Source of the DNA: Candidatus Zixiibacteriota bacterium
Lineage (GTDB): Bacteria; Zixibacteria; MSB-5A5; GN15; FEB-12
Length of the DNA: 32,000 nucleotides
NCBI GenBank assembly: GCA_034003725.1
Contig: JAVEYB010000005.1
Coordinates: forward strand, 38,831-70,830
Direction of reading: 5' to 3'
The notes beneath the pieces were generated by a model. It saw only the letters and a list, made by a program, of their open reading frames with translations, made no database searches and was not told the DNA's origin. Position 1 is the stretch's first letter, and every line of letters starts with the position of its first letter. Below are positions 11,346 through 30,469 of the stretch, one piece after another. The position numbers and the translations under genes were made by a program.

Positions 11346-12023
11346 TTATACCTCGTTGCCCCAGCTTTTCCAGCCGCGGCGGCGGTTCCGGGCGAACAAC
11401 TCCAGATACCGCATTCCGGGGTACATGTGCTCAATCATCTCGTAAACCGAGTGCGGCTTTTTGCTATGGATGGTTCGTTTCTCACGAAACACCGAACGGA
11501 GCCGTTGCGACGGTGGCGGCACCGGAAACGTGCCCTTGCGGCCGACCAGTAACAATTCGTGTTGATTTCGCCACCAGACGCCAAGCCCCATGATCTCCTT
11601 GTCCCACACAGCATGGCTGCGATACCGAAAGCCCCAAGCTTCCATAACTTCCAGCGCATTACCAAGTATGGCCGGTGGCGTCCACAGATACAGAACCGAA
11701 TCTGCGGCCGAAGGAATCTGTAAGCTCTTTATGTCCTGCAAATCCATAGTCGGGTAGTGCTTCTCTATTTTGGTATTCATGCCCGACCATTTGTAGCGCC
11801 AGGGTGGATCGGCATAGATGATATCGAACCTCCCACGTGGCATGGGAGGTGTGTCTACACCGGCTGCAACATCAATCCGAATCAAGTGCTCAGGGATCGT
11901 GTGCCTATTCCAGATTGGTGCACCTGCTTGATGCAACCAGTGCACCGGTTGTCTGTCCCGATGTACCTCCCGATGACCTGCCGAAAGGCTGTTGTTTCCG
12001 TAAGAGTTAAGACGACTAGACAT
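11346..12023 (-). CDS. MT-A70-family N6-adenine DNA methyltransferase
   Basis: Catalytic DPPW motif in FDIIYADPPWRYKW. Size and the C-terminal HSKKP..VYE.IE pattern are typical of MT-A70. No cognate restriction gene is visible. Confidence 0.85.
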   Translation of the reverse strand: MSSRLNSYGNNSLSAGHREVHRDRQPVHWLHQAGAPIWNRHTIPEHLIRIDVAAGVDTPPMPRGRFDIIYADPPWRYKWSGMNTKIEKHYPTMDLQDIKSLQIPSAADSVLYLWTPPAILGNALEVMEAWGFRYRSHAVWDKEIMGLGVWWRNQHELLLVGRKGTFPVPPPSQRLRSVFREKRTIHSKKPHSVYEMIEHMYPGMRYLELFARNRRRGWKSWGNEV

Positions 12024-12039
12024 TTTGGATTCCCTTTCA

Positions 12040-12501
12040 TTAAGCGCCGGTAGTTCGTCCCCGACGCCTGTGTGGTCTATTAGGTGTTGATTTACTGCGC
12101 CTAGGCGACCGAAGCCTTCGTGTGACTCGTCTTACAGGCCATTCAGGTAGCAGCCGTCGGGCGAGCCAGAACACGAACACCAAAAAGGCAATGGCCAGCA
12201 GTAGTGGCATTAAGCTATCGATGTTGGTCAAAATCGTGATTACAAGTGCGATCCCGAGCACGGCTGTTACAGTTCGCACAATCAAGCCAGGTTGGTTAAA
12301 GAGGCGGAACAACCGATTGACGACGTAGCCGCCGGGAGCCGGTTCGCTGAGCCGTGCGCTGCCGCATAACCCGCAATACTGGCTATCGGGCGGGTTTTCG
12401 TGCCCGCTCTGACAAAGCCTGAGATTCCAGGTACGGCCGCAATAGTGGCACCGTTCCGGCTGACCGGGTGAGATTCTCCTGCACGACGGGCACCAACGCA
12501 T
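12040..12501 (-). CDS. double zinc-ribbon protein with a C-terminal TM helix and a basic tail
   Basis: CPSC...CHYCG...C.SGH...YCGLCG gives four CxxC-type pairs. TM region IVRTVTAVLGIALVITILTNIDSLMPLLLAIAFLVFVFWLA. Arg-rich C-terminus. Confidence 0.6.
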   Translation of the reverse strand: MRWCPSCRRISPGQPERCHYCGRTWNLRLCQSGHENPPDSQYCGLCGSARLSEPAPGGYVVNRLFRLFNQPGLIVRTVTAVLGIALVITILTNIDSLMPLLLAIAFLVFVFWLARRLLPEWPVRRVTRRLRSPRRSKSTPNRPHRRRGRTTGA

Positions 12502-12502
12502 G

Positions 12503-13363
12503 CTAGCTACGCTCCTTTGTGACTTCCTGACGATGCAGTGAAGTGGTCGTTTGTTGCCCCGGCATATTCCAAACGGAGCCGAAAAGCGGGTTTTGTGTGA
12601 CTTCTGTGAGAGTGCCGACCAATACTCGCAGTGAAGGCGACTGTGGCAGTCTTGCGGCGAGACTTGCCGCTCTGCCTGAGGACGTGGTTACAATCAGAAC
12701 CGTCAGCCGACTGAGCTTGAACAGCTTTCGGAAATAGCCGGATGACTGGGCCAATTGATAGAGTTCGAGCTTTCGGCGAAGGCGTCGAAGCGACTCACTG
12801 CCAGTATCCAGTTCCAGACAGAAGTGGTACAGCAGTCGGTTAATGGCGTATCGACCATACCCGTCCGGCCTCGGCATGACTGCCAACGGCACTTTGGCCG
12901 TCTGGCAAGTATTGAGGAAGGCGTATTCGTTAAGCCAGGAGATCCATTCACCTCCGGACGTTTTCAAACAGTGGCCGATTAATGCGGCAGCGAAGTCGCT
13001 GATGCCAAGATCATGCGCCAGCGTGCTGTCGGGCATGCGCCGAATTCGACGTCGGCGGCGCAGTAGCATATCCAGATCATTCTGGCTTATAGAAGCAAGG
13101 TGCCGGATACCTTCTCGGCCGAGATAGTAAATAGCTGGTGCGGACCCCGATTGCACTGGCATGAATCGCCGTTCCACCAAACCGGCATCGAATAATTGCC
13201 TTAGGCGACGATTGATTCGGGTGACACACGGCCAGTCCAGGAGCAATTGCAACTGCTCCCGAGTGAGAAGGAGATGTCGGTCCAGCAAGTTGAGTAGCTC
13301 TCGATCTCGATCACTCAAGACCAGGCGGGGCGCACTTTGCCGTCTGGAGGGGTTGGCTCTCAT
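12503..13363 (-). CDS. replication-relaxation family protein (Replic_Relax-like), copy 1
   Basis: N-terminal wHTH-like LSDRDRELLNLLDRHLLLTREQL...RLRQLFDAGLVER and the conserved LELDTGSE motif. It is a paralog of 19368-20498. Confidence 0.72.
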   Translation of the reverse strand: MRANPSRRQSAPRLVLSDRDRELLNLLDRHLLLTREQLQLLLDWPCVTRINRRLRQLFDAGLVERRFMPVQSGSAPAIYYLGREGIRHLASISQNDLDMLLRRRRRIRRMPDSTLAHDLGISDFAAALIGHCLKTSGGEWISWLNEYAFLNTCQTAKVPLAVMPRPDGYGRYAINRLLYHFCLELDTGSESLRRLRRKLELYQLAQSSGYFRKLFKLSRLTVLIVTTSSGRAASLAARLPQSPSLRVLVGTLTEVTQNPLFGSVWNMPGQQTTTSLHRQEVTKERS

Positions 13364-14862
13364 CAGAATCCCCCTTCGCGATAGCCGGGCGGCAAGTCAT
13401 GATTGCCTCTGTCCGGATCAGCGTCAGACGCCGGTAGCTCGTTTACCTTGGGTGGCTCAGATTTGGGCGGCTCACCAAAACTGGAGTGCTCATCGGAAGA
13501 CGCCGGGGGCCACGTTACACCGCCGACGTTGCGGTACATTTGGCGGACCATTTGCTCTTCGATCCGACTGAGCTTCTCCGGAATGGGGAGATAATCGACT
13601 GATACCTGGCGGGCCGGTTTCCCGCCGACAAAGACCATCGCCTCGCCAACTCCGAGCCGGGCGATACGGCTTCTGAGTAACTCCCGTTCCTCCCCTTGCA
13701 GTTCTGCCGTTACGGTCTTGAGATTCTCGGCGTCCATACGAAAGCAGCAGCGTACCGCGCAGTTGGTGAGAATGGTCGAGCGCATGGCTCGGTCCATGCC
13801 GGTTAGCGACTGGCCGCTCAAGAGGACCGGAATCTTCAGCTTGCGAAACTCGTTTAGGGCCGGAGCAATGATCTCGTGGACTCCGGCCAAGGCGTTGAAT
13901 TCGTCGATTATAAGAGTCGACAGGTGGCGCTCCGGCTCCGGAATGGGCAAGCGCGCGAAAGCTGCCTGTTGCTCGACTGCCAGAATGATACTGGCGACTA
14001 GTTCAGCATCCCGTCCGAGAATGCCCTTATTGAGGTCAAAGAGAACGAGCATGCGATCATTCAGGCATTGGAACAGGTCAAGATCGGACGTATTCGATCC
14101 GAACATGACGCGGAGCTTCGGATCGGCCAGAAAGGTGCTGAGTCGCGGGAGGAAAACCTGCGTGTAGAAGTCGCGCATGGCATCAGAGAGATGAAGCCAG
14201 CGATTGAGAAAGTAATTACGGCAGGCTTCATTGCGAACAGTCTGACAATGGTGATGCAGGAGGGCAGGATTTCTAAGTAGCGGTTCGGTCATTGTCAGCG
14301 GCAAACCATGCTCGGCCATCAAACAGAAGGTGTTGGCTATCAATTCACTTGAGGGCGCACCCCAGGTTGCCTCGGGCCATTGTCGGCGGAGCATAAGTTC
14401 CATGTGCTGCCCGACTCGATGCGGTTTGGCCCATGTCACTTTGGCCAGCGGATTGAATCGAACCAGCGGGGCCTGGTCATCAAAGGAGACGACGAGGATT
14501 CTGCTCAAGACTCGCTTGGGCAGGACGCCGGTGGTGACCAATCGGGCTGCCAGTGAGAGGAACTTGGGAACAGCGTCATGAATGTCGACCATCAGTCCGC
14601 CATAGCCATGCATGAGCAAGTTCACGAGGAAGACGAATATCAATGAAGTCTTCCCGCCACCGGACGAGCCCAGCGAGACAGCGTGGCGCTGCAAATCAGA
14701 CAATTCTATGGCGAACGGCTCAATGACTCGACAATCTGTCAAGGCGCTCGCCTCTCCGATCTGCAATCGTCCCGCGCCCGGACTCGCATTCGACTTCGCC
14801 GATCGGGGTCGAGCCAACAGCCGTTCAAAGAGCGGTATGAGCATCCGTTCTATCGCCGTCAT
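13363..14862 (-). CDS. soluble P-loop ATPase, type IV coupling protein (TraD/TraG/VirD4)-like
   Basis: Walker A GSSGGGKT, Walker B LIIDEFNAL, then RKLKIPVLLSGQSLTGMD, which fits the T4CP pattern (R/K..gi....QS..Q). No N-terminal TM helices. ATGA overlap with E1, and a 1-nt overlap with the next gene. Confidence 0.72.
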   Translation of the reverse strand: MTAIERMLIPLFERLLARPRSAKSNASPGAGRLQIGEASALTDCRVIEPFAIELSDLQRHAVSLGSSGGGKTSLIFVFLVNLLMHGYGGLMVDIHDAVPKFLSLAARLVTTGVLPKRVLSRILVVSFDDQAPLVRFNPLAKVTWAKPHRVGQHMELMLRRQWPEATWGAPSSELIANTFCLMAEHGLPLTMTEPLLRNPALLHHHCQTVRNEACRNYFLNRWLHLSDAMRDFYTQVFLPRLSTFLADPKLRVMFGSNTSDLDLFQCLNDRMLVLFDLNKGILGRDAELVASIILAVEQQAAFARLPIPEPERHLSTLIIDEFNALAGVHEIIAPALNEFRKLKIPVLLSGQSLTGMDRAMRSTILTNCAVRCCFRMDAENLKTVTAELQGEERELLRSRIARLGVGEAMVFVGGKPARQVSVDYLPIPEKLSRIEEQMVRQMYRNVGGVTWPPASSDEHSSFGEPPKSEPPKVNELPASDADPDRGNHDLPPGYREGGF

Positions 14863-15674
14863 GATTGTCCCTCACGATTTTCACCGCACAGCGGACATTC
14901 GGGATTTCTCGGGACAGTGCGGACAAGCTCCGGCATGAAACCGGCCAGGCGAATCTCCCGATAGTTCCAGCCAATCGGGCGGCCCATAACCAGCGAGTCG
15001 ACGGCGAATGATGTCAGAGCAGCGGCCAGCTTGAGCGGATCGATGATGGCCGGTACGCCGGGACAGGGGGTGATGTCAATGTTGATTGCGTGCGGCAGGA
15101 TGCAACCGAAACAGGCTTCGCCAGGACGTTGCACCAAGCAGTAACATTGATCGCCGTCGCGTGATACGGCGCAGAACAGAGCCGGTACGTGCTTTCTCAT
15201 AGCCCATTCCGCGACGGCCCGCCGCGACTGATCGGAGTCTACACCACAAATGACGACAGCGGGAGTAAGATCGAGACCTCGCTCCAGCGCCGCTTCGAAG
15301 AAATAGGGATAGGCATTGATGTGACTGCCCATACAACCGTCTTGCGCCAGATTGCGAGCAAGGCGTTCAGCCTTATTCTTCCACAAGTCTTTGGGTGTAA
15401 ATTGTTGCCGGTTGAGATTGGACAAGTCGACGGTGTCACCGTCAAAACAATGGATTTCTCCATAGCCTTTCTTGACCAATGAGTGAAGTATCTCACCCCC
15501 AAGTCCTCCGCAGCCGACCTGCAGCACGGTCGTGTCCCAGGCAGTTTGCTGATTCCAATTCGGAATGCCTTCCTGGCGAGACCATACCCGGTCGCGCTCG
15601 GTACCCTGATCTCTCAGATCGGGACTTTGAAACGATTTAGACTTCAGTGAGCCGATAGAGCTTTTCCGCCGCAT
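14859..15674 (-). CDS. ThiF/MoeB-type E1-like adenylyltransferase (BilD-like)
   Basis: Rossmann motif VGCGGLGGE, then DGDTVDLSNLNRQ, then two CxxC pairs (CFGC, CPLC) as in the MoeB/ThiF zinc site. Start set at ATG 15674, preceded by AAGGAG plus 6 nt; the track start 15743 lacks an SD. Confidence 0.85.
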   Translation of the reverse strand: MRRKSSIGSLKSKSFQSPDLRDQGTERDRVWSRQEGIPNWNQQTAWDTTVLQVGCGGLGGEILHSLVKKGYGEIHCFDGDTVDLSNLNRQQFTPKDLWKNKAERLARNLAQDGCMGSHINAYPYFFEAALERGLDLTPAVVICGVDSDQSRRAVAEWAMRKHVPALFCAVSRDGDQCYCLVQRPGEACFGCILPHAINIDITPCPGVPAIIDPLKLAAALTSFAVDSLVMGRPIGWNYREIRLAGFMPELVRTVPRNPECPLCGENREGQS

Positions 15675-16326
15675 GGCGAACTCCTTTCCCTGTGACACAA
15701 ACACGAAACGGCATCCGGTGAGAAAAGAATCGGGCGTAGCCATCGCGCGAATAGATGATCCCCACCGTGCGATAGCCAGCCGTTTCCAGCTGCATCTGAT
15801 TGGTCAGATCGATCTGTGACGGCAGATTCGAAGATTTCCCGCGGCCCGGATGCATGTGTAGATACGCCGTCAGCAGACTGCCCCGTTTTTCGAGTTGCGC
15901 CAGGATTCGGCTGGTAGCGGCCGCATTCGAAGTCGCCCGCCCGTACTCGGAGCGGTCGTGCTCAATGTCTACGGTGCGCTCGATAGTGAGCAGGTCATTG
16001 AAAGCAGTGCCGGTTGCGTACCGAATCACTTCGTTCTCATACTGCCGCAGAAGTTCGTACTCATTGTAAAGCAGTTCGGAGCTCACCAAGAAAGTAGGTT
16101 GGTTAGGCAAAGTATCACTGGCCAAAGCTCTGGCATGAGTTAGGCCGTACAGGAGCTCGTGATCTGTCATCAGCCGCCTGAAGATCGCCTCAGCATCGGC
16201 AATGTCTCCTTTGGTCAAGGCAGATCTCAGGGCGGTGAAATCTACCTGCGATTGCATGCCTAGACTTTGACACAATTGCTCCAGACGCTCTACGGTTAGC
16301 TTTCGCAAAAACCGTTCTCGTTCCAT
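15637..16326 (-). CDS. JAB/JAMM (MPN+) metallopeptidase (BilC/Cap3-like)
   Basis: HMHPGRGKSSNLPSQID fits a HxH...S..D JAMM motif with a slightly long spacer. An upstream Glu (ENEVIRYATGT) is present. About 100 aa of helical N-terminal extension. Confidence 0.8.
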   Translation of the reverse strand: MERERFLRKLTVERLEQLCQSLGMQSQVDFTALRSALTKGDIADAEAIFRRLMTDHELLYGLTHARALASDTLPNQPTFLVSSELLYNEYELLRQYENEVIRYATGTAFNDLLTIERTVDIEHDRSEYGRATSNAAATSRILAQLEKRGSLLTAYLHMHPGRGKSSNLPSQIDLTNQMQLETAGYRTVGIIYSRDGYARFFSHRMPFRVCVTGKGVRHAAEKLYRLTEV

Positions 16327-16360
16327 TTTCTATTTCCTTTCGATACAAGTGATTGACCCT

Positions 16361-16675
16361 TTATCCCTCGAATGCCTGGCGCAGGGTTAGTTCTATGCCC
16401 ACGATCCCGTCAACAACCGATCTGCCTCGACGTGAAAAGTGAACTTCGTAAACGTCATCTCCTTTGCGGATGAAACAGGGGCCGTGAGGGCCGGACAGTA
16501 CTTCCTGCGGCGGGTCGTAGATGTAGTATGACCACTTGGTGGCGTGGCGTTTGACGATGCGACCCTGCCACGCTCCGAACGGGCTGACCCGGTACCATCC
16601 GAAAAAACTGTCGCCACGCCGTTGCCACCGGCGATCCATCCACAGCGGCCGGAACCTTCGCGTGATATTGACCAT
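16361..16675 (-). CDS. 104-aa protein, candidate minimal E2-like (BilB-position) enzyme
   Basis: Start set at ATG 16675 (MVNITRRF), preceded by AAAGGAGAA. The sequence has a basic N-terminal helix, three predicted strands (FFGWYRV, AWQGRIV, KWSYYIY), then DPP...GPHGPC. This is loosely reminiscent of the UBC PP...HPN...C layout. It occupies the E2 slot between the Ubl and JAB genes. Confidence 0.4.
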   Translation of the reverse strand: MVNITRRFRPLWMDRRWQRRGDSFFGWYRVSPFGAWQGRIVKRHATKWSYYIYDPPQEVLSGPHGPCFIRKGDDVYEVHFSRRGRSVVDGIVGIELTLRQAFEG

Positions 16676-16706
16676 GGTCTTTTCTCCTTTCTGGTTGGAG
16701 GCGGGT

Positions 16707-16736
16707 GGGAGACGCCGGTTCTGCCCGACGCCTCCC
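16707..16736 (-). promoter_or_regulatory. GC-rich intercistronic hairpin between the Ubl and E2-like genes
   Basis: GGGAGACGCCGG / CCGACGCCTCCC forms a 12-position stem with 2 mismatches and a 6-nt loop. It lies inside the 84-nt Ubl/E2-like spacer. Confidence 0.35.
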
Positions 16737-16759
16737 TGCACCGACTCGGTTCGGTACGC

Positions 16760-17014
16760 TTACCGGCTCCCGCCGTGGTGATGGATAACATGGCCCACGT
16801 CGGTCCGACTCGCGGCATGCAGCTTCTCGCCGTCCTTGATTTCGGCGTAGATGTTTTCCGTATTGCCGAACACGTGAGCGCCGTTGTCCTTGGACAGGAC
16901 AAAGTCCTCCCCGATTCCGAGATCGCGGAAGATGTCCTCGGGTGTGGTACCGGGTTCAATAGTCACGTCGTGACTACGCCCTGAACCGGCGATTACGATT
17001 ACAACTTGCTTCAT
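16760..17014 (-). CDS. 84-aa ubiquitin-like (beta-grasp) protein precursor with a C-terminal GG-SR tail (BilA-like)
   Basis: AAGGAG lies 7 nt before the ATG. The strand/helix pattern (VVIVIAG, DVTIEPG, TPEDIFRDLGI, DFVLSKD, IYAEIKDGEKLHA) is compatible with a beta-grasp fold. A flexible tail ends HHHGGSR. It is the first gene before E2-like/JAB/E1. Confidence 0.62.
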   Translation of the reverse strand: MKQVVIVIAGSGRSHDVTIEPGTTPEDIFRDLGIGEDFVLSKDNGAHVFGNTENIYAEIKDGEKLHAASRTDVGHVIHHHGGSR

Positions 17015-17124: not shown

Positions 17125-18594
17125 TTAGAGGCTTGGAATCGTGTAACCGCGACCTCGTTTGGTCACGATGATATGCTTGACGGGGAGTTTTTTGCGGATT
17201 TCGGCGATGAAATAATGAGCCCTACGAGGTACGCCTTCCAGCGATTCGGCGAACTCCTCATACAGTTTGATTATGTCAGTGTTTGACACGAAATGACCCT
17301 CGCGCTCGACCAATAGGTTGAAAATGGCAAGCTGGAGGTCGGATAGTTGGCCGATGGAGAGTGTTTCCTCACCGTAAATCTCACCAGAAATCAGGTCAAT
17401 TCGGACGCCGTGACGCGAAAATACCGTAACGGCCGACTTCTTAAGTGAAGTGATAAAATCCCTGAGATCACGTTTCAGGGTCTGGGCCAACAGGCCAGAA
17501 TGTGGGGAGTCATCAACTCCGGACTTTGATAGGTCCCGAATTCGGCGTGACAGTTCAGCCGCCTGACCGCTTGGTCCGGTTTTGTTGAGCGATCCGAAGG
17601 CATGAGAAAACTGATCAAGCGTTTGACTTAGGATAGTGCTGTGCAGTAGGAAATCGGGTGCGATGAATTCGATAGCTCTCTTCAAGTGATGAATGGCCTG
17701 TTTGTAATCCCCAAGACCATTATAGGCCGTACCATAACCGAGCGGAACGAAAGGAAAAAGGGATTGCGATTTGAATCGCTTCGTCTCCTTCTCGGCAAAC
17801 CTGAACCACTCCAACGCTCTCTTGAAATCGCGCTTGTGAAGAAGCAAATTACCGACGCGCTTGAGAATGTCTGCCGACTTGGTCGAGACGTCGTGTTTCT
17901 CGGAAGCGCTCAGTGCGGCGTCATACATCCTCTCAGCCTTGTCGAAGTCGCCGACAGACCTGTAAATATCACCCTGACATAACAGACTTTCAACGAATAG
18001 TTCGAGTTGCTCCATTGAGGCCGATTGTACGTGCTCCAACAGATCCAGAGCCTTCTCATAGTTTCCCATAGCTCCATAGACCTGCCCTTGCTGAAGCATG
18101 GTCTCCAACCGCGATCGGGAGTTATCAGCATCGTCTGAGATGTGAAGTGCCTGGCGAAGATATACCAGCGCTTGATTGTGATTTTGTCTCAAGCTGTCTA
18201 TAGACGCAAGTTGGACCAGAGCGTCTGCTTCCAAAGCCGCCAGACCGTGATCACGAGCAATTACCAGCGCCTCGGCGGTTTGCTCTTCAGCTTTGGCGTA
18301 TTCCAGGTACTGCAGAAACAGGTAGCCGGATTCGATCAGCGCGTTCGCATACGTTTCCTGTGGGCACCTGTCTAGTGCCATTTTGACGAATTTGGTTGCC
18401 AGGCGCTTGGCCTTGGTCGCCTCACCTGTAGACATCAATGCTTTCGTCTGAAGAATGAGACATTCGACCTGACGTGGGAAGTCCTTTGTCCTTTGAGCTT
18501 CCTTGAGAGCCTTCTCTGAAGCTTTAAATGATGCGCCAAACTCGTCCTGCAAATAGAGGCGTTCGGCTTTGGTAATTAGTTCGCTATCTTTCAT
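17125..18594 (-). CDS. TPR-repeat protein with a C-terminal OmpR/PhoB-type winged-helix DNA-binding domain
   Basis: About 400 aa of TPR-like repeats (A..Y...G.Y..A periodicity). C-terminus LSDLQLAIFNLLVEREGHFVSNTDII...RRAHYFIAEIRKKLP...IVTKRGRGYTI matches the trans_reg_C pattern. Confidence 0.8.
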   Translation of the reverse strand: MKDSELITKAERLYLQDEFGASFKASEKALKEAQRTKDFPRQVECLILQTKALMSTGEATKAKRLATKFVKMALDRCPQETYANALIESGYLFLQYLEYAKAEEQTAEALVIARDHGLAALEADALVQLASIDSLRQNHNQALVYLRQALHISDDADNSRSRLETMLQQGQVYGAMGNYEKALDLLEHVQSASMEQLELFVESLLCQGDIYRSVGDFDKAERMYDAALSASEKHDVSTKSADILKRVGNLLLHKRDFKRALEWFRFAEKETKRFKSQSLFPFVPLGYGTAYNGLGDYKQAIHHLKRAIEFIAPDFLLHSTILSQTLDQFSHAFGSLNKTGPSGQAAELSRRIRDLSKSGVDDSPHSGLLAQTLKRDLRDFITSLKKSAVTVFSRHGVRIDLISGEIYGEETLSIGQLSDLQLAIFNLLVEREGHFVSNTDIIKLYEEFAESLEGVPRRAHYFIAEIRKKLPVKHIIVTKRGRGYTIPSL

Positions 18595-18659: not shown

Positions 18660-19136
18660 CTAAGAGTTTTCACTGTTCGCCACAAAGGCACCTGCTAGAA
18701 AGAGCCCAATACCCCAGAGTATTCCTGTGGCAATATTCTTTTCATGCTTCTTACGCAATAAGAATTGCTGCATCCCACGGATCGATGACTCTGGTCTTCG
18801 ATAATCTAGGAGAATATACTCTCTCCCGTCTAACATAGAAAGCTTAGACGGATCAAAGCCGGGCAAGGCTATAGGTATTATTAGTTTCTCCTTTCCCTCT
18901 GCATAGCCGATTTCCTGCTGGACATAGGTAGATTGTTGACTGGCAGGAGAAAGTAGCACAATCATTCCGTCTGATCGATCAATTTCGGCTTTGACTTTTT
19001 CGGAAATATGCCGACCAGGCTGTACGTCGTGCTCGCAAAGGTAGACTTCCACTTCAATCTGTCGCGCACTATCCACAATGTAATTTGCCACTTGAATGTC
19101 CGCACTACTGTGACTGAGAAACACTCGATAAGACAT
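18660..19136 (-). CDS. small TIR-domain protein with a C-terminal TM anchor
   Basis: VFLSHSSAD start, and a conserved Glu context STYVQQEIGYAEG typical of bacterial TIR_2 domains. C-terminal hydrophobic helix ATGILWGIGLFLAGAFVA. Start set at ATG 19136 (AAGGAG plus 5 nt) rather than GTG 19142. Confidence 0.85.
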   Translation of the reverse strand: MSYRVFLSHSSADIQVANYIVDSARQIEVEVYLCEHDVQPGRHISEKVKAEIDRSDGMIVLLSPASQQSTYVQQEIGYAEGKEKLIIPIALPGFDPSKLSMLDGREYILLDYRRPESSIRGMQQFLLRKKHEKNIATGILWGIGLFLAGAFVANSENS

Positions 19137-19169
19137 GTTCACTCCTTTGATAACATGAATTTGATGGTT

Positions 19170-19367: not shown

Positions 19368-20498
19368 CTATTCGATGAGACTTGTGAGTTCGCTGTTTGC
19401 ACGCGGCGTTAGCCAGCAGCGGTCGAACAGTGACTCCGGTCGTATGACCGAATACGCTTCCGGCGTCGTGAAAAGAAATAGCGAAGTAGTAACATAGAAT
19501 CTGCCCATGTCAGATAGCTGGGATATGATATTGGCAATTCTCCCGGACACGTGCGTCTTCGACCGAATGATCCCGGGAGTCACTAACAACACTTGGAACC
19601 CATTGAGACCTGAATCATCGCCGGTCGCCACTGAGTTTCTGCCGTTATCGATGTTGAGGCCAACTACAGTCCCATCGGGTAAGCGGCGGTAGCTATAGCG
19701 TCGCGGGAATCGCCCGGACTTTCTGTATAGGCGGTATGCGATGAGCTTGCGGCGAACATCAGTACGCTGGCCTTGCGCCGAAATTGGCTCGGTTCCCCGG
19801 TCAATCTCAAGGAAGTAGTGTTTTCGTTGGCCACTCGGAAGCTCCAGGCCGAAGAATGCATCGGGATAGACCGGCAATGTTTGCTTCTGATCCCAACGGT
19901 CAGTGAATTCGACATAGTCACGAAGCACTTCGCCTTGCTCCCAGAACAGCAATCTGACTTCATCGGCAGACCTTTGGCAGGCAAGTTCCAATGTCACTCG
20001 AAACCGTGTGACCTCGATAGCGTGACGGAGAAAAGGCGATTTGACGCGATTACGCTCAACTATCCGGCGAATCTCATAAGCGGGTACGCCGACGCGTTCT
20101 GCGAGTATAGGGGCGCATTTGAGCCCCACACCATAAATGGCACGTGGGGCACCATGTCCCCGTCCCATTGGCTGATCGGTCGGATAATGGCGCTCCAGAT
20201 ACCCGGCGTGGAAAAGCTGCCGGAGTCGCTTCGAGAGGGCCTGCTGGCCAAAACCATATCGTTTGGGGCGACTTTTGCCATCTGTCCCCACGGCGTATCG
20301 GATTGACCGACTCCGGTAGTCCGGTTGGAGGAGGTGCCAGAGCAGTTCGAGGGTCAGAAAGCGGTGGTTGTAGACAAGCTGAATGACGGCATAATCTCGC
20401 TCTTTGAGGGCAATTTCCGATGGGGAGGCTTTGTCCCGGACATAGCGTGATCGATGGGGTCTACTGGCTGTCAATGTCATGGGTTGAATGTAATCCAA
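19368..20498 (-). CDS. replication-relaxation family protein (Replic_Relax-like), copy 2
   Basis: LKERDYAVIQLVYNHRFLTLELL...RLRQLFHAGYLER and LEIDRGTE motifs are shared with 12503-13363. The track start 20498 is TTG; ATG 20480 (MTLTASR) is an alternative start. Confidence 0.72.
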   Translation of the reverse strand: MDYIQPMTLTASRPHRSRYVRDKASPSEIALKERDYAVIQLVYNHRFLTLELLWHLLQPDYRSRSIRYAVGTDGKSRPKRYGFGQQALSKRLRQLFHAGYLERHYPTDQPMGRGHGAPRAIYGVGLKCAPILAERVGVPAYEIRRIVERNRVKSPFLRHAIEVTRFRVTLELACQRSADEVRLLFWEQGEVLRDYVEFTDRWDQKQTLPVYPDAFFGLELPSGQRKHYFLEIDRGTEPISAQGQRTDVRRKLIAYRLYRKSGRFPRRYSYRRLPDGTVVGLNIDNGRNSVATGDDSGLNGFQVLLVTPGIIRSKTHVSGRIANIISQLSDMGRFYVTTSLFLFTTPEAYSVIRPESLFDRCWLTPRANSELTSLIE

Positions 20499-20531
20499 TT
20501 CTAATTCCGGCTTTGCCGGATTCCTCTTCCG

Positions 20532-21003
20532 GACGCCCCCCTCGTCGGAGGCCGAAAGTCACGCCCACGGCGTGACGGCCGCCCCGTGAAGCCGAGCCCA
20601 AGGGGCGACGGCTGGACGGTTGGCGGTTCGAGCCGGCCGACTCTGCCCGCTTCGCCGAGTCCCTCCACCAGATGTCAAATCGTGGGGCGAGGCCAAGGAG
20701 CGCGAACCGTTTGGTGGTTCGCAAGCGACGCAGCCGCACCTTACTGGCGGTCCCTGTCCTGCTTCGTCACTTGGAGATCGACGACATAACTCTCGGCAAG
20801 TCAAAAGAAGCAGGACAGGCAGGAAGCGTGCGGGAAGGGGGCAGAGTCGGGCGGCGACCGACCTCATTTGGCCCTTATAAGACGGCCATAAGGCCGTCGC
20901 AGAAAGTAGTAATGATAATACATCAATTCTACTTTCTTAAGCTGTCCTCGGGACGGCTTACCTGGCCAATGAGGGAAGCGAGACCGACCGACGAGGGGGG
21001 CGT
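20532..21003. other. GC-rich noncoding element with nested long-range helices (candidate large structured RNA or ssDNA-fold origin)
   Basis: Three perfect nested complements: 20532-20548 / 20987-21003 (17 bp), 20637-20648 / 20839-20850 (12 bp), and 20753-20765 / 20807-20819 (13 bp). Local hairpins at 20558-20576 (8 bp), 20702-20722 (7 bp) and 20881-20898 (7 bp). Flanking hairpins at 21014-21034 (9 bp) and 21041-21055 (6 bp). No credible ORF. Confidence 0.45.
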
Positions 21004-21199
21004 CTTTATCCAAGGGCAGTCCAGTGGACTGCCCGGCCACGGCGCGACACGCGCCGAAGTATTCAGGATGTTCGTCTTTTTCGGCAGTAATAGCATAGGT
21101 CGCCGAAGTCGACCTGACGCTTGCAGACGCTGCATTTGGGTTTGCTACGAAAGCGCGTTCGGCGGTTCTTACGGAAGGTACTGGTGGGCTGTCTCGGTC

Positions 21200-21745
21200 T
21201 CATCGGGCAAGCCTCCGTTTCTTCCTTCGGGGAGAATCAGTCCCAGTGGGAGGATGCAGTTGCAGGAATGCGACTCCACAAGCGATGGCATCAAACATGT
21301 TGCCGAAATAGCGCTCCTGACTGCCGGTCCGGCCTCTCAAATAATAGCGTGTCTCCGGAAAGCGCGACATGACGGATTTCGCGGCATCGAGCTTTCGGGC
21401 GTTGCCGTTGCCGGTTACAATCCGCCGGATTGTTCTGGCATTCAGCCCGTGGCAGGGTACGCGGTGAGACTTACTCAATGATTCGATCTTTTGGATCACT
21501 CGAATTAGCCGATAGTTGGACGTAGCCTGGGAGAATTGGTTACGCTCGAAAACAAGGACGGATGGCTGTTTTTCGACAAGCATTCGGGTGAGGATGTCTT
21601 CTACGTGCTCAAGAATGATCGGCAATCCTCCCTGACGAATCGACTTGATGCCGAAATCAACCAGTTTGGTAGAATTGAAGGCGGCATAGCCGAGGTATTG
21701 TGTTCCGGGATCTATGGCGAGCAGGCTATTTCGAGTCTCGCGCAT
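21200..21745 (-). CDS. RuvC-like Holliday-junction resolvase (element-encoded)
   Basis: LLAIDPGTQYLGYA (first catalytic Asp), VLVFERNQF (Glu), FDAIACGVAF (Asp). These are colinear with the E. coli RuvC motifs IDPG...E...DA.A.A. 181 aa with a basic tail. Confidence 0.7.
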   Translation of the reverse strand: MRETRNSLLAIDPGTQYLGYAAFNSTKLVDFGIKSIRQGGLPIILEHVEDILTRMLVEKQPSVLVFERNQFSQATSNYRLIRVIQKIESLSKSHRVPCHGLNARTIRRIVTGNGNARKLDAAKSVMSRFPETRYYLRGRTGSQERYFGNMFDAIACGVAFLQLHPPTGTDSPRRKKRRLAR

Positions 21746-22022: not shown

Positions 22023-22307
22023 TTAGTACTCGATTACGATATCGTGGTCTCTTTGCCGGGCGTTCACCTCCTCTCGAATCTTGCGGAAGTGGTCGCTGAA
22101 GAGCACTTCGACCGGACACCTGAGCGCTGCGGAGAGTCTGAGGGCAGTCTCCAGCGTGGGCACGCGCGACCCTGCTTCCCAGTGAGAGATATGATGCTCA
22201 ACGCGGATGCCGACCAGTCGCGCGACGTCCCGCAACCGGAGATTCCGTTTCTTGCGGAAAATCCGGATGTGATTCGGATAATTGGTCCAATCGGTGCGGG
22301 ACATCAT
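22023..22307 (-). CDS. XRE-family helix-turn-helix transcriptional regulator
   Basis: RKKRNLRLRDVARLVGIRVEHHISHWEAGSRVPTLETALRLSAALRCPVEVLF is a classic HTH_3 pattern. First gene of the colinear block. Confidence 0.85.
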   Translation of the reverse strand: MMSRTDWTNYPNHIRIFRKKRNLRLRDVARLVGIRVEHHISHWEAGSRVPTLETALRLSAALRCPVEVLFSDHFRKIREEVNARQRDHDIVIEY

Positions 22308-28142: not shown

Positions 28143-29756
28143 TCAAGGCAAGCGTAGAACCAGCAATCCTTCATCAAGTGCTGCCAAATATACGTAGTCG
28201 CCTACAATATCAACCCGGGTGCCGCCTAATCCACTCCCTGAATGGTTGGCGTAGTAATGGCCAATACGAGACGGCTGTGCCGGGTTAGATACATCAAGGA
28301 CGAACAATCCCTTCTTGAGATAATGGACCGACGAGACGCAAGCGATGTTGTCTGACACATCAATACCACTCGCATTGAAACCGTCAGTCGGTTGGTAGGT
28401 ACCGGTCAGCGTTGGTTGCGCCGGACTAGTTACGTCGAATATCTGCATTCTACCGCCGGAACCCGTGAATACTTGGTTTCCAAACACCTGAATTGCCCAG
28501 TCGTCTTTTGTGAATTGAGAAGACACCACAGTCGGAGTAGCCGGTGAGGAAACATTATAAACCGCTCCGCCGTCAAAATCGGCGATATACAGATAACCGT
28601 TTGTTGCAGCGATATTTCCTACCCGGCTGCGTGTAATGGCGCCAAGGTGTTGGGGTGAGGCGGGCGTCGAAACATCGATAATTTCGACGTATCCTTTGCC
28701 CGAGCTATCAGCGAAAGTACTAAGATACAATATGTTTCCATCGGCGCATAATCCCCAAAAGGCGGTTGTGCCTATCGTCAATACTTGCCCGATTGGCTGA
28801 ATTACATTAGGAGTTGAAATGTCAAACACTTCAAGAACACGATCCCGTAAGAGAAACAGACTCGTACCGCGGAGCGTGAGATCCGAGACGCTGGAGGTTT
28901 GACGTGTGGCAGCCAAGTACGGCTGTGAGGGCGAAGCCACGTTTACGACTTGTATTCGGGCGCTGAAATTGGTTGAGCCGGCATTGAGTAGATATGCCCA
29001 ATCTCCCGATACGGCTACGGTAGTAACAAACCCCGCAGTTGAGAATCGACCTACGAGTTGGACCTCTTGAATAGTCTTGAAGCTCCAGACAGGCCCGCTT
29101 CTCTCGTGCCCATGATTATCTTTCGCCACAATCTTCCAGTAGTAGGTCGTGTTGTAACTTAGCTGGTTGAACCAATCACCGCCAGTGGCCTGATACATTT
29201 GCTGCGTAAGATTGGATTTGACCAAGGGAGGATTCGTCCCGGTGCCGAAGTACAAGTCAGATGACACCGGGTCACCATCCGGATCGGAACACTGCCACCT
29301 CAGCGTAATACCGGCAGTATCCTGCCCGGTGGAGCCATTTGTCGGCACTGGATCGGAAGGGATGGTCGGCGCTTGGTTGCCAACGGTAGAGAAGCTCCAG
29401 ACTGGACCACTCGCGGAGGCTCCTTTCACATCCGTTGCCGTCACTTTCCAGTAATAGGTTGTGGAAGTGGCTAGTTGACCGGGGGCGTATGAGGACGAAG
29501 CTTGATCGTTGCTTACGACTGGAGGTGGATTCGATGTACCAAGCGAGACATCATAGGTGATGGAGTCCCCTTCCGGATCGGAACATTGCCAGGCGAGTTG
29601 AGTGGTAGTTGATACATTTGAGGCCCCGCTGGCGGGATGCGGATTGCTTGGTGCGACCGGAGCTTTGTTGCCGCCGCCTGAATTGGTCCCTGAATCACCA
29701 CTACTGCACGATACCAGCAGTAGAATGGCTACAATGGACATTATCGCTTTTGTCAT
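28143..29756 (-). CDS. surface lipoprotein: two Fn3-like repeats followed by an LVIVD-type beta-propeller region
   Basis: Lipobox LLVSC. Tandem modules W.CSDP.GD...YYWK..A.D..G....GPVWSF.T occur twice. The C-terminus carries repeated GNxxY(L/V) motifs ending GDYVYLAALDEGLLVLRL. Confidence 0.8.
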   Translation of the reverse strand: MTKAIMSIVAILLLVSCSSGDSGTNSGGGNKAPVAPSNPHPASGASNVSTTTQLAWQCSDPEGDSITYDVSLGTSNPPPVVSNDQASSSYAPGQLATSTTYYWKVTATDVKGASASGPVWSFSTVGNQAPTIPSDPVPTNGSTGQDTAGITLRWQCSDPDGDPVSSDLYFGTGTNPPLVKSNLTQQMYQATGGDWFNQLSYNTTYYWKIVAKDNHGHERSGPVWSFKTIQEVQLVGRFSTAGFVTTVAVSGDWAYLLNAGSTNFSARIQVVNVASPSQPYLAATRQTSSVSDLTLRGTSLFLLRDRVLEVFDISTPNVIQPIGQVLTIGTTAFWGLCADGNILYLSTFADSSGKGYVEIIDVSTPASPQHLGAITRSRVGNIAATNGYLYIADFDGGAVYNVSSPATPTVVSSQFTKDDWAIQVFGNQVFTGSGGRMQIFDVTSPAQPTLTGTYQPTDGFNASGIDVSDNIACVSSVHYLKKGLFVLDVSNPAQPSRIGHYYANHSGSGLGGTRVDIVGDYVYLAALDEGLLVLRLP

Positions 29757-30469
29757 GATCTGTTTCCTCCTGTGTCATTGAGAATTGATATTTGTTTCAT
29801 AGTTTTCGCATAATTGCTTCGCACATCGGATAGTCCCTCTCGTCCGTACAAGTCCATCGTAGTCGCCTGACTGGCGTGTCCGAGAATGGACGAGAGCGTC
29901 TCAATGGAGCCGCCAGCATCTTTCCACAGGCGGGCGAAGGTATGGCGAAACAAGTGGCAGGTGAGCTTGGTACGGTTTGGGTCGGGGTGCTGTACGCCGG
30001 AGTCTATTCCGGCTCGTTCTACTATCCGGTTTAATTGCCTGCTGGATAATCGTCCGCCACTTCGACTGACAAATACATATCCCTCTCGTCTCCCGCCCAT
30101 GCACTGTCCAAGCAGAAGGACCAAGTGATCGGTCAAAGGGACCAGCCTGGTCTTACCGCCCTTGCCGTTTCTGACGACTGCAAGTTGTTCTTGCAGGCGG
30201 ATATCAGCGATTTCCAAAGAGACTACTTCTGAGCGGCGCAATCCGGTCTCAGCCATGAGGGTGAGCATGGTTTGGTCACGCAGAGAGCGCGTAGCGGCTA
30301 AGACTTTCCGTACTTCGACTCGGGTAAGGTGATATTCGGCTCGCGAATGGCGGCCGTTTCCGCCGTTACTGTTGGATAAAGGTTGTTTACTGTGCATACC
30401 GAATGACGGGAAGGTCACTTTGTTAGAGAAAGCTGACGTTGGATTCGTCTCCCGTGCTGCATCGGCCAC
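29753..30469 (-). CDS. short tyrosine recombinase (catalytic domain only, XerC/D-like)
   Basis: R (TGLRRSE), K (GKGGKTR), HxxR (HLFRHTF), H (LGHAS) and Y (MDLY) are all present. Only about 45 aa precede the catalytic domain. The start is uncertain (GTG 30469 or ATG 30397, neither with an SD). The stop overlaps the lipoprotein ATG (ATGA). Confidence 0.85.
   Translation of the reverse strand: MADAARETNPTSAFSNKVTFPSFGMHSKQPLSNSNGGNGRHSRAEYHLTRVEVRKVLAATRSLRDQTMLTLMAETGLRRSEVVSLEIADIRLQEQLAVVRNGKGGKTRLVPLTDHLVLLLGQCMGGRREGYVFVSRSGGRLSSRQLNRIVERAGIDSGVQHPDPNRTKLTCHLFRHTFARLWKDAGGSIETLSSILGHASQATTMDLYGREGLSDVRSNYAKTMKQISILNDTGGNRS

What the first reader, a model, noticed from the sequence alone, without database searches (positions are those of the whole stretch)
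11346..17014. Eight-gene overlapping operon joins a ubiquitin-like conjugation cassette to conjugative-type DNA-handling genes
Seen in the sequence. Ubl, E2-like, JAB, E1, T4CP-like ATPase, replication-relaxation protein, zinc-ribbon TM protein and MT-A70 methylase are colinear on the minus strand. Their junctions imply co-translation:
- JAB/E1 overlap by 38 nt.
- E1/ATPase share ATGA (14859-14862).
- ATPase/RepRelax overlap by 1 nt (13363).
- RepRelax and the zinc-ribbon gene are separated by 1 nt.
- The zinc-ribbon gene and the methylase are separated by 16 nt.

Established knowledge. Ubl-E2-JAB-E1 cassettes (Bil systems, CBASS Cap2/Cap3) act in anti-phage defence. T4CP ATPases and Replic_Relax proteins belong to plasmid/ICE DNA transfer and replication.

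Inference. I know of no described system in which a Ubl conjugation module is operonically fused to a coupling-protein ATPase, a relaxation protein and an orphan methylase. Two readings are possible: a mobile element that uses Ubl tagging to control its own transfer or replication proteins, or a composite defence system that tags incoming DNA-associated proteins.
Basis: partly seen in the sequence, partly recalled or inferred. Interest (0 to 1): 0.85.

Follow-up and report, generated by a model that had tools for sequence, protein, structure and literature searches.

The report
Ubiquitin-like cassette wired into a mobilisable element
Eight back-to-back genes in an uncultured Zixibacteria genome join a ubiquitin-like protein-tagging kit to the DNA-transfer genes of an integrative mobile element, and the same pairing recurs in many bacterial phyla, pointing to an undescribed link between protein tagging and gene mobility.

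Summary
Eight intact minus-strand genes (11346-17014) have exactly the junctions described.

**Domain calls**
- Solid: E1 (ThiF), JAB/JAMM peptidase, Replic_Relax and MT-A70.
- The Ubl is a true ubiquitin fold. Its conserved reactive glycine is Gly74 ("DVG"), not the "GG" in the tail.
- The "E2" is a new Cys/His family. I could not show it is a UBC fold.

**Recurrence**
- Of 36 well-flanked relatives of the E1, JAB occurs in 34, Ubl in 31 and the E2-like gene in 32.
- The ATPase occurs in 30, Replic_Relax in 27, the zinc-ribbon gene in 26 and an integrase in 30.
- The genes appear in two different orders. All loci come from metagenome-assembled genomes (MAGs).

**Interpretation**
- Replic_Relax is the MOB_C relaxase family. 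ATPase, relaxase, (Xis) and integrase match the compact module of integrative mobilisable elements.
- In window-type relatives the integrase abuts a tRNA gene.
- The window copy lacks Xis and Int at that end.
- Two relatives carry the mobility module without any Ubl genes, so the cassette is a lineage-specific addition.

What the Ubl tags is unknown. I found no description of this pairing. I rate it a new variant of known kinds, of high interest.

The parts
16760..17014 (-). Ubiquitin-like protein precursor (84 aa). The mature part ends at invariant Gly74 (codon 16793-16795) and is followed by a 10-residue tail, HVIHHHGGSR.
   Evidence: In the 22-sequence family alignment G74 is invariant and tails run 0-16 aa. 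An AF2 model of a homologous Ubl-E2 fusion has pLDDT >92 over the Ubl domain. Foldseek matches that domain to ubiquitin, NEDD8 and Caldiarchaeum Ub with TM 0.66-0.74. The best profile-to-PDB hit is SAMP2, E=0.11, which is not significant.
16361..16675 (-). E2-like candidate (104 aa): a small protein with invariant Cys67 and near-invariant His64 and His79. It belongs to a new family with no Pfam model.
   Evidence: Alignment. There are 493 cluster representatives at E<=1e-3 among 1.84 billion proteins. 28 of the best 150 are natural Ubl-E2 fusions. There are no Pfam or PDB sequence hits, and hhalign against UBC gives probability 0.4%. In the AF2 model this domain has pLDDT 94-98 and folds as short helix, four-strand meander, PP turn, Cys hairpin and long helix.
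15637..16326 (-). JAB/JAMM metallopeptidase (229 aa) with a poorly conserved helical N-terminal extension.
   Evidence: E99, H157, H159, S170 and D173 are invariant. The family profile hits BRCC36 at 3.6e-4, Rpn11 at 0.011 and BilC at 0.02. Prok-JAB is found in 10 of 13 members.
14859..15674 (-). E1-like adenylating enzyme (271 aa).
   Evidence: ThiF 6e-24. The family profile hits Uba1 at 1e-20, as well as MoeB and ThiF. The GxGxxG, NRQ and D146 motifs, two CxxC pairs and Cys204 are conserved.
13363..14862 (-). Soluble FtsK-HerA/VirD4-superfamily ATPase (499 aa). It is coupling-protein-like and has no N-terminal TM segment.
   Evidence: TraG-D_C 6e-4 and PADLOC mad8 2e-13. The family profile hits DotL at 1e-10, HerA at 1e-10 and TrwB at 3e-6. 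Among 12 family members, TrwB_AAD_bind hits 11 and TraG-D_C hits 8.
12503..13363 (-). Replic_Relax protein (286 aa): wHTH plus PD-(D/E)xK domain, the MOB_C relaxase family.
   Evidence: PF13814 3e-26. The literature equates PF13814 with MOB_C and the PD-(D/E)xK fold. H117, D165, E184 and D186 are conserved in 31 relatives.
12040..12501 (-). Double zinc-ribbon protein (153 aa) with a hydrophobic membrane segment and a basic tail.
   Evidence: DZR 4e-4. The Cys pairs are conserved in 29 relatives. The gene always follows Replic_Relax.
11346..12023 (-). MT-A70 DNA methyltransferase (225 aa) with no cognate restriction gene identified. It is optional in the family.
   Evidence: MT-A70 2e-23 and PADLOC MTase_II 8e-48. 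It is present in 12 of 36 relatives. In Acidobacteriota it occurs as a ParB_N-MT-A70 fusion after E1.
17125..18594 (-). TPR + winged-helix (Trans_reg_C) regulator immediately upstream of the operon.
   Evidence: Pfam. The same gene sits upstream of Ubl in L003 (83% identity) and in L016. Other relatives have a sigma-54 activator or an ECF sigma factor at this position.
19368..20498 (-). Second Replic_Relax paralogue (376 aa).
   Evidence: PF13814 3.5e-14. It holds the same upstream position in L005, L012 and L016.
21200..21745 (-). RuvC-like resolvase (181 aa).
   Evidence: RuvC 1.4e-4. Orthologues in L012 and L083 score 5e-12 and 2e-11. The gene is conserved upstream in L005, L012, L083 and L125.
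22023..22307 (-). XRE-type HTH protein (94 aa).
   Evidence: HTH_3 1.2e-10. An HTH_3 gene holds the same position in L005.
29753..30469 (-). Small tyrosine recombinase (238 aa), a possible left-end component of the element.
   Evidence: Phage_integrase 8e-32. It is 47-48% identical to the small recombinase at the left end of L012 and L016, against 26-31% to the large integrases.
18660..19142 (-). TIR-domain protein (160 aa), lineage-specific cargo.
   Evidence: TIR_2 3e-17 and ThsB-like 3e-10. No homologue was found in any related locus.

Best explanation
The eight genes are the core operon of a previously unrecognised family of integrative, probably mobilisable, elements found in uncultured bacteria. 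The operon has two halves.

**Downstream half: DNA processing and mobilisation.**
- A soluble coupling-protein-like ATPase.
- A MOB_C (Replic_Relax) nuclease-type relaxase.
- A small zinc-ribbon membrane protein that may anchor the first two. This role is inferred.
- An optional orphan MT-A70 methylase. It probably protects the element's DNA from restriction in new hosts; this is inferred from the carriage of orphan methylases by other mobile elements.
- In relatives, Xis and a tyrosine integrase that sits next to a tRNA gene.

**Upstream half: a Bil-like protein-conjugation cassette of a new sequence family.** The steps below are inferred from conserved residues and from Bil/Bub precedent.
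1. The Ubl is made as a precursor, with a tail or fused to the E2-like protein.
2. The JAB peptidase trims it after Gly74.
3. E1 adenylates Gly74 and probably forms a thioester at Cys204.
4. The Ubl passes to Cys67 of the E2-like protein and then to a target lysine.

**Linkage and likely function.**
- Shown: the two halves are co-inherited, and in the window lineage they are translationally coupled.
- Inferred: the cassette works on or with the element's transfer or maintenance machinery, for example by tagging the relaxase, the ATPase or a regulator. On this view it is not interchangeable cargo.
- The window copy lacks the Xis-Int end. It may be immobilised, or it may depend on the distant small recombinase.
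For: **Junctions and intactness.**

**Conserved neighbourhood.** Loci at 45-47% E1 identity keep the same order, followed by HTH_17 and an integrase. In 36 non-redundant, well-flanked loci from Zixibacteria, WOR-3, Thermodesulfobacteriota, Lentisphaerae, Planctomycetota, Verrucomicrobiota, Alphaproteobacteria, Acidobacteriota and one Methanosarcinaceae MAG:
- JAB 34
- Ubl 31
- E2-like 32
- ATPase 30
- Replic_Relax 27
- Zinc-ribbon 26
- Integrase 30

**Two gene orders.** The ATPase lies downstream of E1 in 8 loci and upstream, beyond the integrase, in 22. The linkage has therefore survived rearrangement.

**Variable genes differ, the cassette does not.** Regulators and the TIR gene vary between relatives while the cassette stays.

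**Mobile-element signatures.**
- PF13814 is MOB_C, and CP-relaxase-(Xis)-Int is a known IME layout.
- tRNA genes abut the integrase in L007, L009, L012, L016 and L018, with different tRNAs in different loci.

**Cassette components.**
- Ubl fold and invariant C-terminal Gly.
- Ubl-E2 fusions in 28 of 150 representatives.
- Published precedent that a JAB-E1 protein cleaves a Ubl-E2 fusion (PMC11601596).
- Intact JAMM and E1 motifs.
Against: - Two relatives, L083 and L125, carry RuvC-like, ATPase, Replic_Relax, zinc-ribbon (and in L125 an integrase) with no Ubl, E2, JAB or E1, even at relaxed thresholds. The cassette is therefore not needed for the basic module.
- In the Acidobacteriota order the cassette lies beyond the integrase. 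It could be outside the element there.
- No att repeats were found.
- The window copy has no Xis or Int at the expected end.
- The ATPase lacks the TM anchor of classical coupling proteins and is equally close to HerA.
- Relaxase activity and oriT are untested.
- The E2-like fold is not identified.
- All evidence is genomic and comes from MAGs.
Confidence: 0.55

Rival explanations
1. The Ubl-E2-JAB-E1 genes are a self-contained Bil-like anti-phage (or counter-defence) system carried as cargo by the mobile element. They share a transcript with the transfer genes but act on phage or other foreign proteins, not on the element's own machinery.
For: - The gene order is identical to BilA-B-C-D, and Bil tags a phage tail fibre (PMC11601603).
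- Mobility modules exist without the cassette.
- A TIR gene lies next door in the window.
- In the Acidobacteriota order the cassette forms its own block after the integrase, together with a ParB-methylase.
Against: - Defence cargo normally varies between related elements. Here the cassette is the constant part across about 30 loci in several phyla, while regulators and the TIR gene vary.
- E1 and ATPase are translationally coupled in the window lineage (junctions of -29 to +22 nt in relatives).
- None of the four proteins reaches any PADLOC, NCBIfam or Pfam model for Bil/Bub components.
Confidence: 0.27
2. All eight genes form one composite defence system of the restriction-modification kind. 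MT-A70 marks self DNA, the PD-(D/E)xK Replic_Relax protein together with the HerA/FtsK-like ATPase attacks unmarked DNA, and the Ubl module regulates them. No DNA transfer is involved.
For: - The best named hit for the ATPase is mad8 of the methylation-associated MADS system, at 2e-13 (10.1101/2023.03.30.534895).
- HerA is as close to the ATPase as DotL is.
- Replic_Relax has a nuclease fold.
- The methylase scores 8e-48 against type II methyltransferase models.
Against: - The methylase is absent from two thirds of relatives. It also changes type and position, appearing as a ParB fusion or a Dam-like enzyme. A self-marking enzyme could not be lost in this way.
- Xis, integrase and a tRNA gene follow the module in relatives.
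- mad6 and mad7, which are mandatory for MADS, are absent.
Confidence: 0.08
3. The Ubl, E1 and JAB proteins act as a sulphur-carrier system of the CysO/QbsE kind, where JAB trims the carrier and E1 makes a thiocarboxylate. On this reading they do not conjugate proteins.
For: - The E1 is MoeB/ThiF-sized, with two CxxC pairs.
- The Ubl is ThiS/SAMP-sized with a single C-terminal Gly and a tail that needs trimming. It resembles SAMP2 and PF1061, but not significantly.
- The 'E2' is not demonstrably an E2.
Against: - No rhodanese, sulphurtransferase or biosynthetic genes occur in any locus.
- The modelled Ubl matches ubiquitin itself best.
- An invariant-Cys partner is fused to the Ubl in many lineages, as in Bub conjugation systems.
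- The context is always a mobile element.
Confidence: 0.04
4. The adjacency is incidental island packing of unrelated genes.
For: The window region is an island with mixed content, including TIR, regulators and a recombinase.
Against: Linkage is conserved in about 30 of 36 loci from many phyla and in two gene orders.
Confidence: 0.02

Closest known systems
Bil (bacterial ISG15-like) operons, types I and II (BilA-BilD)
   Same: - Four separate genes in the same order: Ubl, E2, JAB/JAMM and E1.
- A beta-grasp Ubl with a reactive C-terminal Gly.
- A JAMM peptidase with intact catalytic residues. BilC is a weak profile hit, E=0.02.
   Different: - No protein reaches a Bil-related model.
- The E2-like protein is only 104 aa and has no detectable UBC similarity.
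- The E1 is a minimal, MoeB-sized enzyme of 271 aa.
- The cassette is fixed next to coupling-protein and relaxase genes in integrative elements.
- No anti-phage role has been shown.
Bub (6E/DUF6527) operons
   Same: - Ubl-E2 fusions are common in the family.
- A JAB peptidase is expected to release the Ubl, as BubCD does for BubAB.
   Different: - There is no DUF6527 protease.
- JAB and E1 are separate proteins.
- The family keeps an invariant Cys (E2-like) and a near-invariant Cys (E1). This suggests thioester chemistry, whereas Bub uses oxyester chemistry.
Integrative and mobilisable elements with a coupling protein and a MOB_C (PF13814) relaxase, e.g. streptococcal IME class 8
   Same: A compact, co-oriented run of coupling-protein-like ATPase, PF13814 relaxase, (Xis) and integrase. 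Relatives are inserted beside tRNA genes.
   Different: - Tyrosine integrase, where class 8 has a serine integrase.
- The ATPase lacks a TM anchor and is as HerA-like as it is VirD4-like.
- There is an extra zinc-ribbon membrane protein, a second Replic_Relax gene and a RuvC-like gene.
- A Ubl conjugation cassette is embedded, which is not reported for IMEs.
- The hosts are uncultured phyla.
PRTRC (ParB-related, ThiF-related cassette) and the '6b/6d' E1-JAB operons of plasmids and ICEs (Iyer et al. 2006)
   Same: - An E1-like and JAB system carried by mobile elements.
- Acidobacterial relatives also place a ParB-domain protein next to the E1.
   Different: - The PRTRC ThiF model scores 39.7 bits against a cut-off of 144.75.
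- The accessory proteins are different.
- No coupling-protein or relaxase linkage is described for PRTRC.
MADS (methylation-associated defence system)
   Same: The ATPase resembles mad8 (2e-13), and a DNA methylase is present.
   Different: The mandatory mad6 and mad7 are absent. The methylase is MT-A70 and optional, whereas the MADS methylase is type-I-like.

Membership tests
Bil-type Ubl conjugation operon | Ubl, E2, JAB and E1 encoded as neighbouring co-oriented genes | tested here: met
   The order Ubl, E2-like, JAB, E1 is present in the window and in relatives.
Bil-type Ubl conjugation operon | Ubl with a beta-grasp fold and a reactive C-terminal glycine | tested here: met
   Gly74 is invariant. 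The AF2 model of a homologue matches ubiquitin with TM about 0.7. The window protein itself was not modelled.
Bil-type Ubl conjugation operon | E2 of the UBC fold with a catalytic Cys | tested here: inconclusive
   Cys67 is invariant. There is no Pfam or PDB sequence hit, and hhalign against UBC gives probability 0.4%. Ubiquitin matches filled both fold-search lists, so the E2-like domain was never tested.
Bil-type Ubl conjugation operon | JAB/JAMM peptidase with E...HxH...S..D | tested here: met
   All motif residues are invariant. The profile hits BRCC36, Rpn11 and BilC. Prok-JAB is found in 10 of 13 members.
Bil-type Ubl conjugation operon | Sequence membership in known Bil/Bub/Cap2 protein families | tested here: not met
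   PADLOC and NCBIfam gave only generic E1 hits below cut-off, and nothing for Ubl, E2-like or JAB.
Bil-type Ubl conjugation operon | Protects against phage by tagging a phage protein | not testable with these tools
   This needs phage challenge and mass spectrometry.
Integrative mobilisable element (CP + MOB_C relaxase + integrase) | Relaxase of the MOB_C / PF13814 family | tested here: met
   PF13814 3e-26, above the cut-off. Acidic and His residues are conserved. The NCBIfam MobC subfamily model is not reached: 16.9 bits against a cut-off of 200.
Integrative mobilisable element (CP + MOB_C relaxase + integrase) | Coupling protein (VirD4/TcpA-type ATPase) next to the relaxase | tested here: inconclusive
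   Among 12 family members, TrwB_AAD_bind hits 11 and TraG-D_C hits 8. The profile hits DotL at 1e-10 and TrwB at 3e-6, but HerA equally at 1e-10. The window protein is below Pfam cut-offs and has no TM anchor.
Integrative mobilisable element (CP + MOB_C relaxase + integrase) | Integrase (and excisionase) adjacent to the module | tested here: not met
   Not met in the window: there is no Xis or Int after MT-A70, and none in the 96%-identical relative. It is met in 30 of 36 relatives. A small recombinase lies 12.7 kb upstream of the Ubl gene in the window.
Integrative mobilisable element (CP + MOB_C relaxase + integrase) | Insertion at a specific site with flanking att repeats | tested here: inconclusive
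   tRNA genes abut the integrase in five relatives. No convincing direct repeats were found, and the window has no tRNA gene.
Integrative mobilisable element (CP + MOB_C relaxase + integrase) | oriT nicking and mobilisation by a helper T4SS | not testable with these tools
   This needs experiments.
PRTRC system | PRTRC-type ThiF protein (TIGR03736) | tested here: not met
   39.7 bits against a cut-off of 144.75.
MADS | mad6, mad7 and mad8 all present | tested here: not met
   Only a mad8-like hit at 2e-13 was found. No other mad models hit any of the ten proteins scanned. The requirement is stated.
CBASS type II (Cap2/Cap3) | CD-NTase plus an E2-E1 fusion | tested here: not met
   No CD-NTase was found in any of the annotated genes of the window. 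E1 is separate from the E2-like protein, and Cap2 models match only the adenylation domain.
Bub operons | DUF6527 serine protease present | tested here: not met
   No DUF6527 hit was found in the window or in the annotated relatives.

The most novel reading that the evidence does not exclude
Ubiquitin-like conjugation is an integral step in the life cycle of a widespread, unrecognised family of integrative elements. The element's own Ubl would be attached to its nuclease-type (MOB_C) relaxase, its coupling ATPase or a regulator. That tag would license excision, relaxosome assembly or hand-over to a host secretion system. This would be a protein-tagging control of horizontal gene transfer with no described precedent in prokaryotes.
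Probability: 0.25. Interest if true: 0.9.

Novelty: new variant of a known kind. Interest (0 to 1): 0.72.

Why it matters
All characterised bacterial ubiquitin-like conjugation systems (CBASS Cap2/Cap3, Bil and Bub) are framed as anti-phage or stress pathways, and most of their targets are unknown.

This finding adds three things:
- A fourth sequence family, with about 500 E2-like clusters at 50% identity, all environmental.
- A different genomic partner. This family is consistently tied to the coupling-ATPase and relaxase module of integrative elements in at least eight phyla.
- A short, concrete list of candidate targets encoded in the same operon.

It therefore offers a tractable way to ask what bacterial Ubl tagging is for outside defence. 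It also defines a new class of integrative elements in poorly studied lineages such as Zixibacteria, WOR-3 and Acidobacteriota.

Tried and rejected
- **AF2 of the window E2-like protein alone.** pLDDT was 47, so the model is unusable.
- **Fold search for the E2-like domain.** I modelled a natural Ubl-E2 fusion with 150 homologues. Ubiquitin matches filled both the PDB and the BFVD result lists, so the E2-like domain stayed unclassified.
- It was not significant, although it lined up the conserved Cys with the E2 catalytic Cys.
- **A SAP-like motif at the JAB N-terminus.** It showed only weak similarity to the Ku70 SAP domain and is not conserved in the family. I dropped it.
- **ATPase-Replic_Relax fusions.** The 660-735-aa ATPases of L017, L018, L029 and L037 looked like such fusions. 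My Replic_Relax profile gives only E=0.09-0.5 on their C-terminal extensions, and Pfam finds nothing there in the two proteins scanned, L018 and L029. I make no such claim.
- **MADS membership.** Rejected, because only mad8 is hit.
- **Word-index searches with JAB and ATPase.** They returned only close relatives.
- **Search for att repeats and partial tRNA copies.** Nothing was found.
- **Consensus scan for promoters and terminators.** It was uninformative.
- **Plasmid and viral collections.** No members of the family were found.
- **Reciprocal scan from the ATPase side.** It was dominated by a paralogous ATPase pair sitting between dnaK and dnaJ. Only about six element-type loci were informative.
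- **Literature searches.** Full-text searches found no paper describing the combination. The library lacks most subscription journals.

Full report
**Source and setting**

The window comes from a candidate division Zixibacteria MAG. The ATPase is 100% identical to NCBI protein RBT76_07585, which lies on a 198-kb contig. To the right of the finding lie chromosomal genes: a Cus-type metal efflux system and a sigma-54 two-component pair. From 11.3 kb leftwards to at least 22.3 kb, all genes are on the minus strand and look like an island.

**Checking the observation**

The eight ORFs and every junction are as described.
- The 38-nt JAB/E1 overlap depends on starting E1 at ATG 15674. That start is preceded by AAGGAG and agrees with gene calls in relatives.
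- Pfam supports ThiF (6e-24), Replic_Relax (3e-26) and MT-A70 (2e-23) outright.
- JAB (0.019), TraG-D_C (6e-4) and the double zinc ribbon (4e-4) are sub-threshold in the window proteins.
- Family-level analysis rescues the JAB call. E99, H157, H159, S170 and D173 are invariant. The profile hits BRCC36 at 3.6e-4, Rpn11 and BilC. Prok-JAB is found in 10 of 13 members.
- The ATPase family hits DotL and HerA at 1e-10 and TrwB at 3e-6. TrwB_AAD_bind is found in 11 of 12 members.
- Where dS is not saturated (TPR, Ubl, E2-like, JAB, ATPase), dN/dS is 0.05-0.17.

**The Ubl and the 'E2'**

Neither protein has a Pfam, PADLOC or NCBIfam hit.

*Ubl.*
- Homologues from related loci show Gly74 invariant at the end of '(E/D)VG'. 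It is followed by 0-16 variable residues.
- The window's HVIHHHGGSR is therefore a removable tail, and its GG is not the conserved glycine.
- A profile search gives only non-significant best hits to SAMP2 and PF1061.

*E2-like protein.*
- It defines a family with invariant W17, G26, G38, C67 and F68, and near-invariant H64 and H79.
- An exhaustive HMMER search finds 493 cluster representatives.
- 28 of the best 150 are Ubl-linker-E2 fusions that keep the 'VG'.

*Structure.*
- An AF2 model of one fusion, P0183, built with 150 homologues, has mean pLDDT 88.9.
- Its N-terminal domain matches ubiquitin, NEDD8 and archaeal Ub with TM about 0.7.
- The C-terminal domain is confidently folded: short helix, four-strand meander, PP turn, Cys-bearing hairpin and long helix. 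It found no listed match, because ubiquitin hits filled both result lists.
- Sequence and profile tests against UBC are negative.
- The E2 role is therefore an inference from position, the invariant Cys and fusion to the Ubl.
- In Bub systems a JAB-E1 protein cleaves a Ubl-E2 fusion (PMC11601596). This supports the processing step I propose.

**Recurrence**

Searches with JAB or ATPase found only close relatives with the same gene order. The E1 has a distinct clade at 40-48% identity.

Three of its members sit in the order small protein, small protein, JAB, E1, ATPase, Replic_Relax, zinc-ribbon, [MT-A70], HTH_17, integrase. A second Replic_Relax gene and a variable regulator lie upstream.

A scan of one genome per species gave 60 loci, all MAGs. 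My own ORF and HMM analysis of 36 non-redundant loci with at least 6 kb on both sides gave these counts:

| Gene | Loci (of 36) |
|---|---|
| JAB | 34 |
| Ubl | 31 |
| E2-like | 32 |
| ATPase | 30 |
| Replic_Relax | 27 |
| Zinc-ribbon | 26 |
| Integrase | 30 |
| MT-A70 | 12 |

Two gene orders exist.
- The window type has the ATPase directly after E1 (8 loci).
- The mainly Acidobacteriota type runs ATPase, Replic_Relax, zinc-ribbon, integrase, Ubl, E2, JAB, E1, then often a ParB_N-MT-A70 fusion (22 loci).

Linkage that survives rearrangement across phyla rules out incidental packing.

**What the downstream half is**

- The literature equates PF13814 with the MOB_C relaxase superfamily and with the PD-(D/E)xK fold.
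- It also describes a compact layout of coupling protein, relaxase, (excisionase) and integrase in integrative mobilisable elements. One class has a VirD4-type protein and a PF13814 relaxase (PMC5357655 and PMC3424549).
- The module here has that layout.
- In L007, L009, L012, L016 and L018 the integrase abuts a tRNA gene, and the tRNA differs between loci. This is typical of site-specific integrative elements.
- No member occurs in PLSDB plasmids or in IMG/VR viral contigs.

I therefore read the module as the mobilisation and integration core of an integrative element. Relaxase activity, oriT and the coupling role remain untested. The ATPase has no TM anchor, and the conserved zinc-ribbon membrane protein may supply one; this is an inference.

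**The window copy**

- There is no Xis or Int after MT-A70, and no remnant of either.
- A 96%-identical relative has the same chromosomal flank.
- The only recombinase, at 29753-30469, is 47-48% identical to the small recombinase at the left end of the L012 and L016 elements.
- The element may therefore extend to about 30.5 kb and include extra genes. It may be immobile.

**Reciprocal test**

Starting from the ATPase in metagenomes, most hits belong to a paralogous ATPase pair lying between dnaK and dnaJ. Of the few element-type loci:
- L081 keeps JAB-E1-ATPase.
- L082 has a divergent E1.
- L083 and L125 have RuvC-like, ATPase, Replic_Relax and zinc-ribbon (and in L125 an integrase) with no Ubl genes, even at relaxed thresholds.

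The cassette is thus an addition to an older mobility module. Within its own clade, however, it is almost never found without that module.

**Mechanism and rivals**

I favour a functional tie between the cassette and the element's transfer or maintenance machinery. The reasons are constancy across relatives, translational coupling and the variability of true cargo.

The main rival is a Bil-like defence or counter-defence cargo. It is favoured by the Ubl-less relatives and by the identical Bil gene order. An R-M-like composite, a sulphur-carrier role and chance adjacency are each less likely, for the reasons listed under the rival explanations.

**Comparison and novelty**

- The system works like Bil or Bub in logic, but it fails sequence membership in Bil, Bub, Cap2, PRTRC and MADS.
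- Its partner genes work like an IME mobilisation module.
- Full-text searches found no description of the combination. Iyer et al. 2006 note only that some E1-JAB operons ride on conjugative elements.
- I rate it a new variant of known kinds.

Noticed in passing
window 18660-19142 (-): A stand-alone TIR-domain protein (TIR_2 3e-17, ThsB-like 3e-10) sits between the TPR regulator and the second Replic_Relax gene. It has no counterpart in any related locus, so it is probably lineage-specific defence cargo.
   Followed up: partly
window 29753-30469 (-); L012 1851-2519; L016 252-1079: A short tyrosine recombinase (220-275 aa) recurs at the upstream end of window-type elements. The window copy is 47-48% identical to those of L012 and L016. 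In the window about 8 kb of extra genes separate it from the RuvC-like gene: a histidine kinase, two response regulators, a glycosyltransferase and an LVIVD protein.
   Followed up: partly
L016 (Methanosarcinaceae archaeon MAG) vs L012 (Zixibacteria MAG): The two elements have matching gene lengths, and their small recombinases are 77% identical, although one MAG is archaeal and the other bacterial. This is either recent cross-domain transfer or a binning error.
   Followed up: no
L131 10016-13594 and many of L084-L159: A pair of soluble coupling-protein-like ATPases occurs in groundwater and sediment metagenomes. One is about 700 aa with a treble-clef zinc finger, and the other is about 500 aa. 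In L131 the pair sits between dnaK and dnaJ, next to grpE. This housekeeping context has no mobile-element genes and is unexplained.
   Followed up: partly
P0161 and P0193 (relatives of the E2-like protein): These proteins have an N-terminal membrane segment and two tandem E2-like domains. The first domain lacks the conserved Cys. This resembles an inactive UEV-like partner paired with an active E2.
   Followed up: no
window 20500-21200: This stretch has high GC (0.59) and only overlapping ORFs without family hits on both strands: 20559-20867 on the minus strand and 20672-21481 on the plus strand. Its coding status is unclear.
   Followed up: no
L017, L018, L029, L037 (ATPases of 670-735 aa): In these loci the ATPase carries a C-terminal extension of about 200 aa and no separate Replic_Relax gene follows. 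By eye the extension looks like a wHTH plus a nuclease-like segment, but it does not score significantly against Replic_Relax (E 0.09-0.5).
   Followed up: partly
L125 17586-20275: A second ATPase-Replic_Relax pair lies about 3 kb beyond the integrase of a Ubl-less element. This suggests tandem accretion of related elements at one site.
   Followed up: no
L009 15798-15813 and 15887-15902: A 16-nt exact repeat of the 3' part of the tRNA-Leu gene lies about 70 nt downstream of that tRNA, beside the integrase. It may be a leftover attachment site.
   Followed up: no
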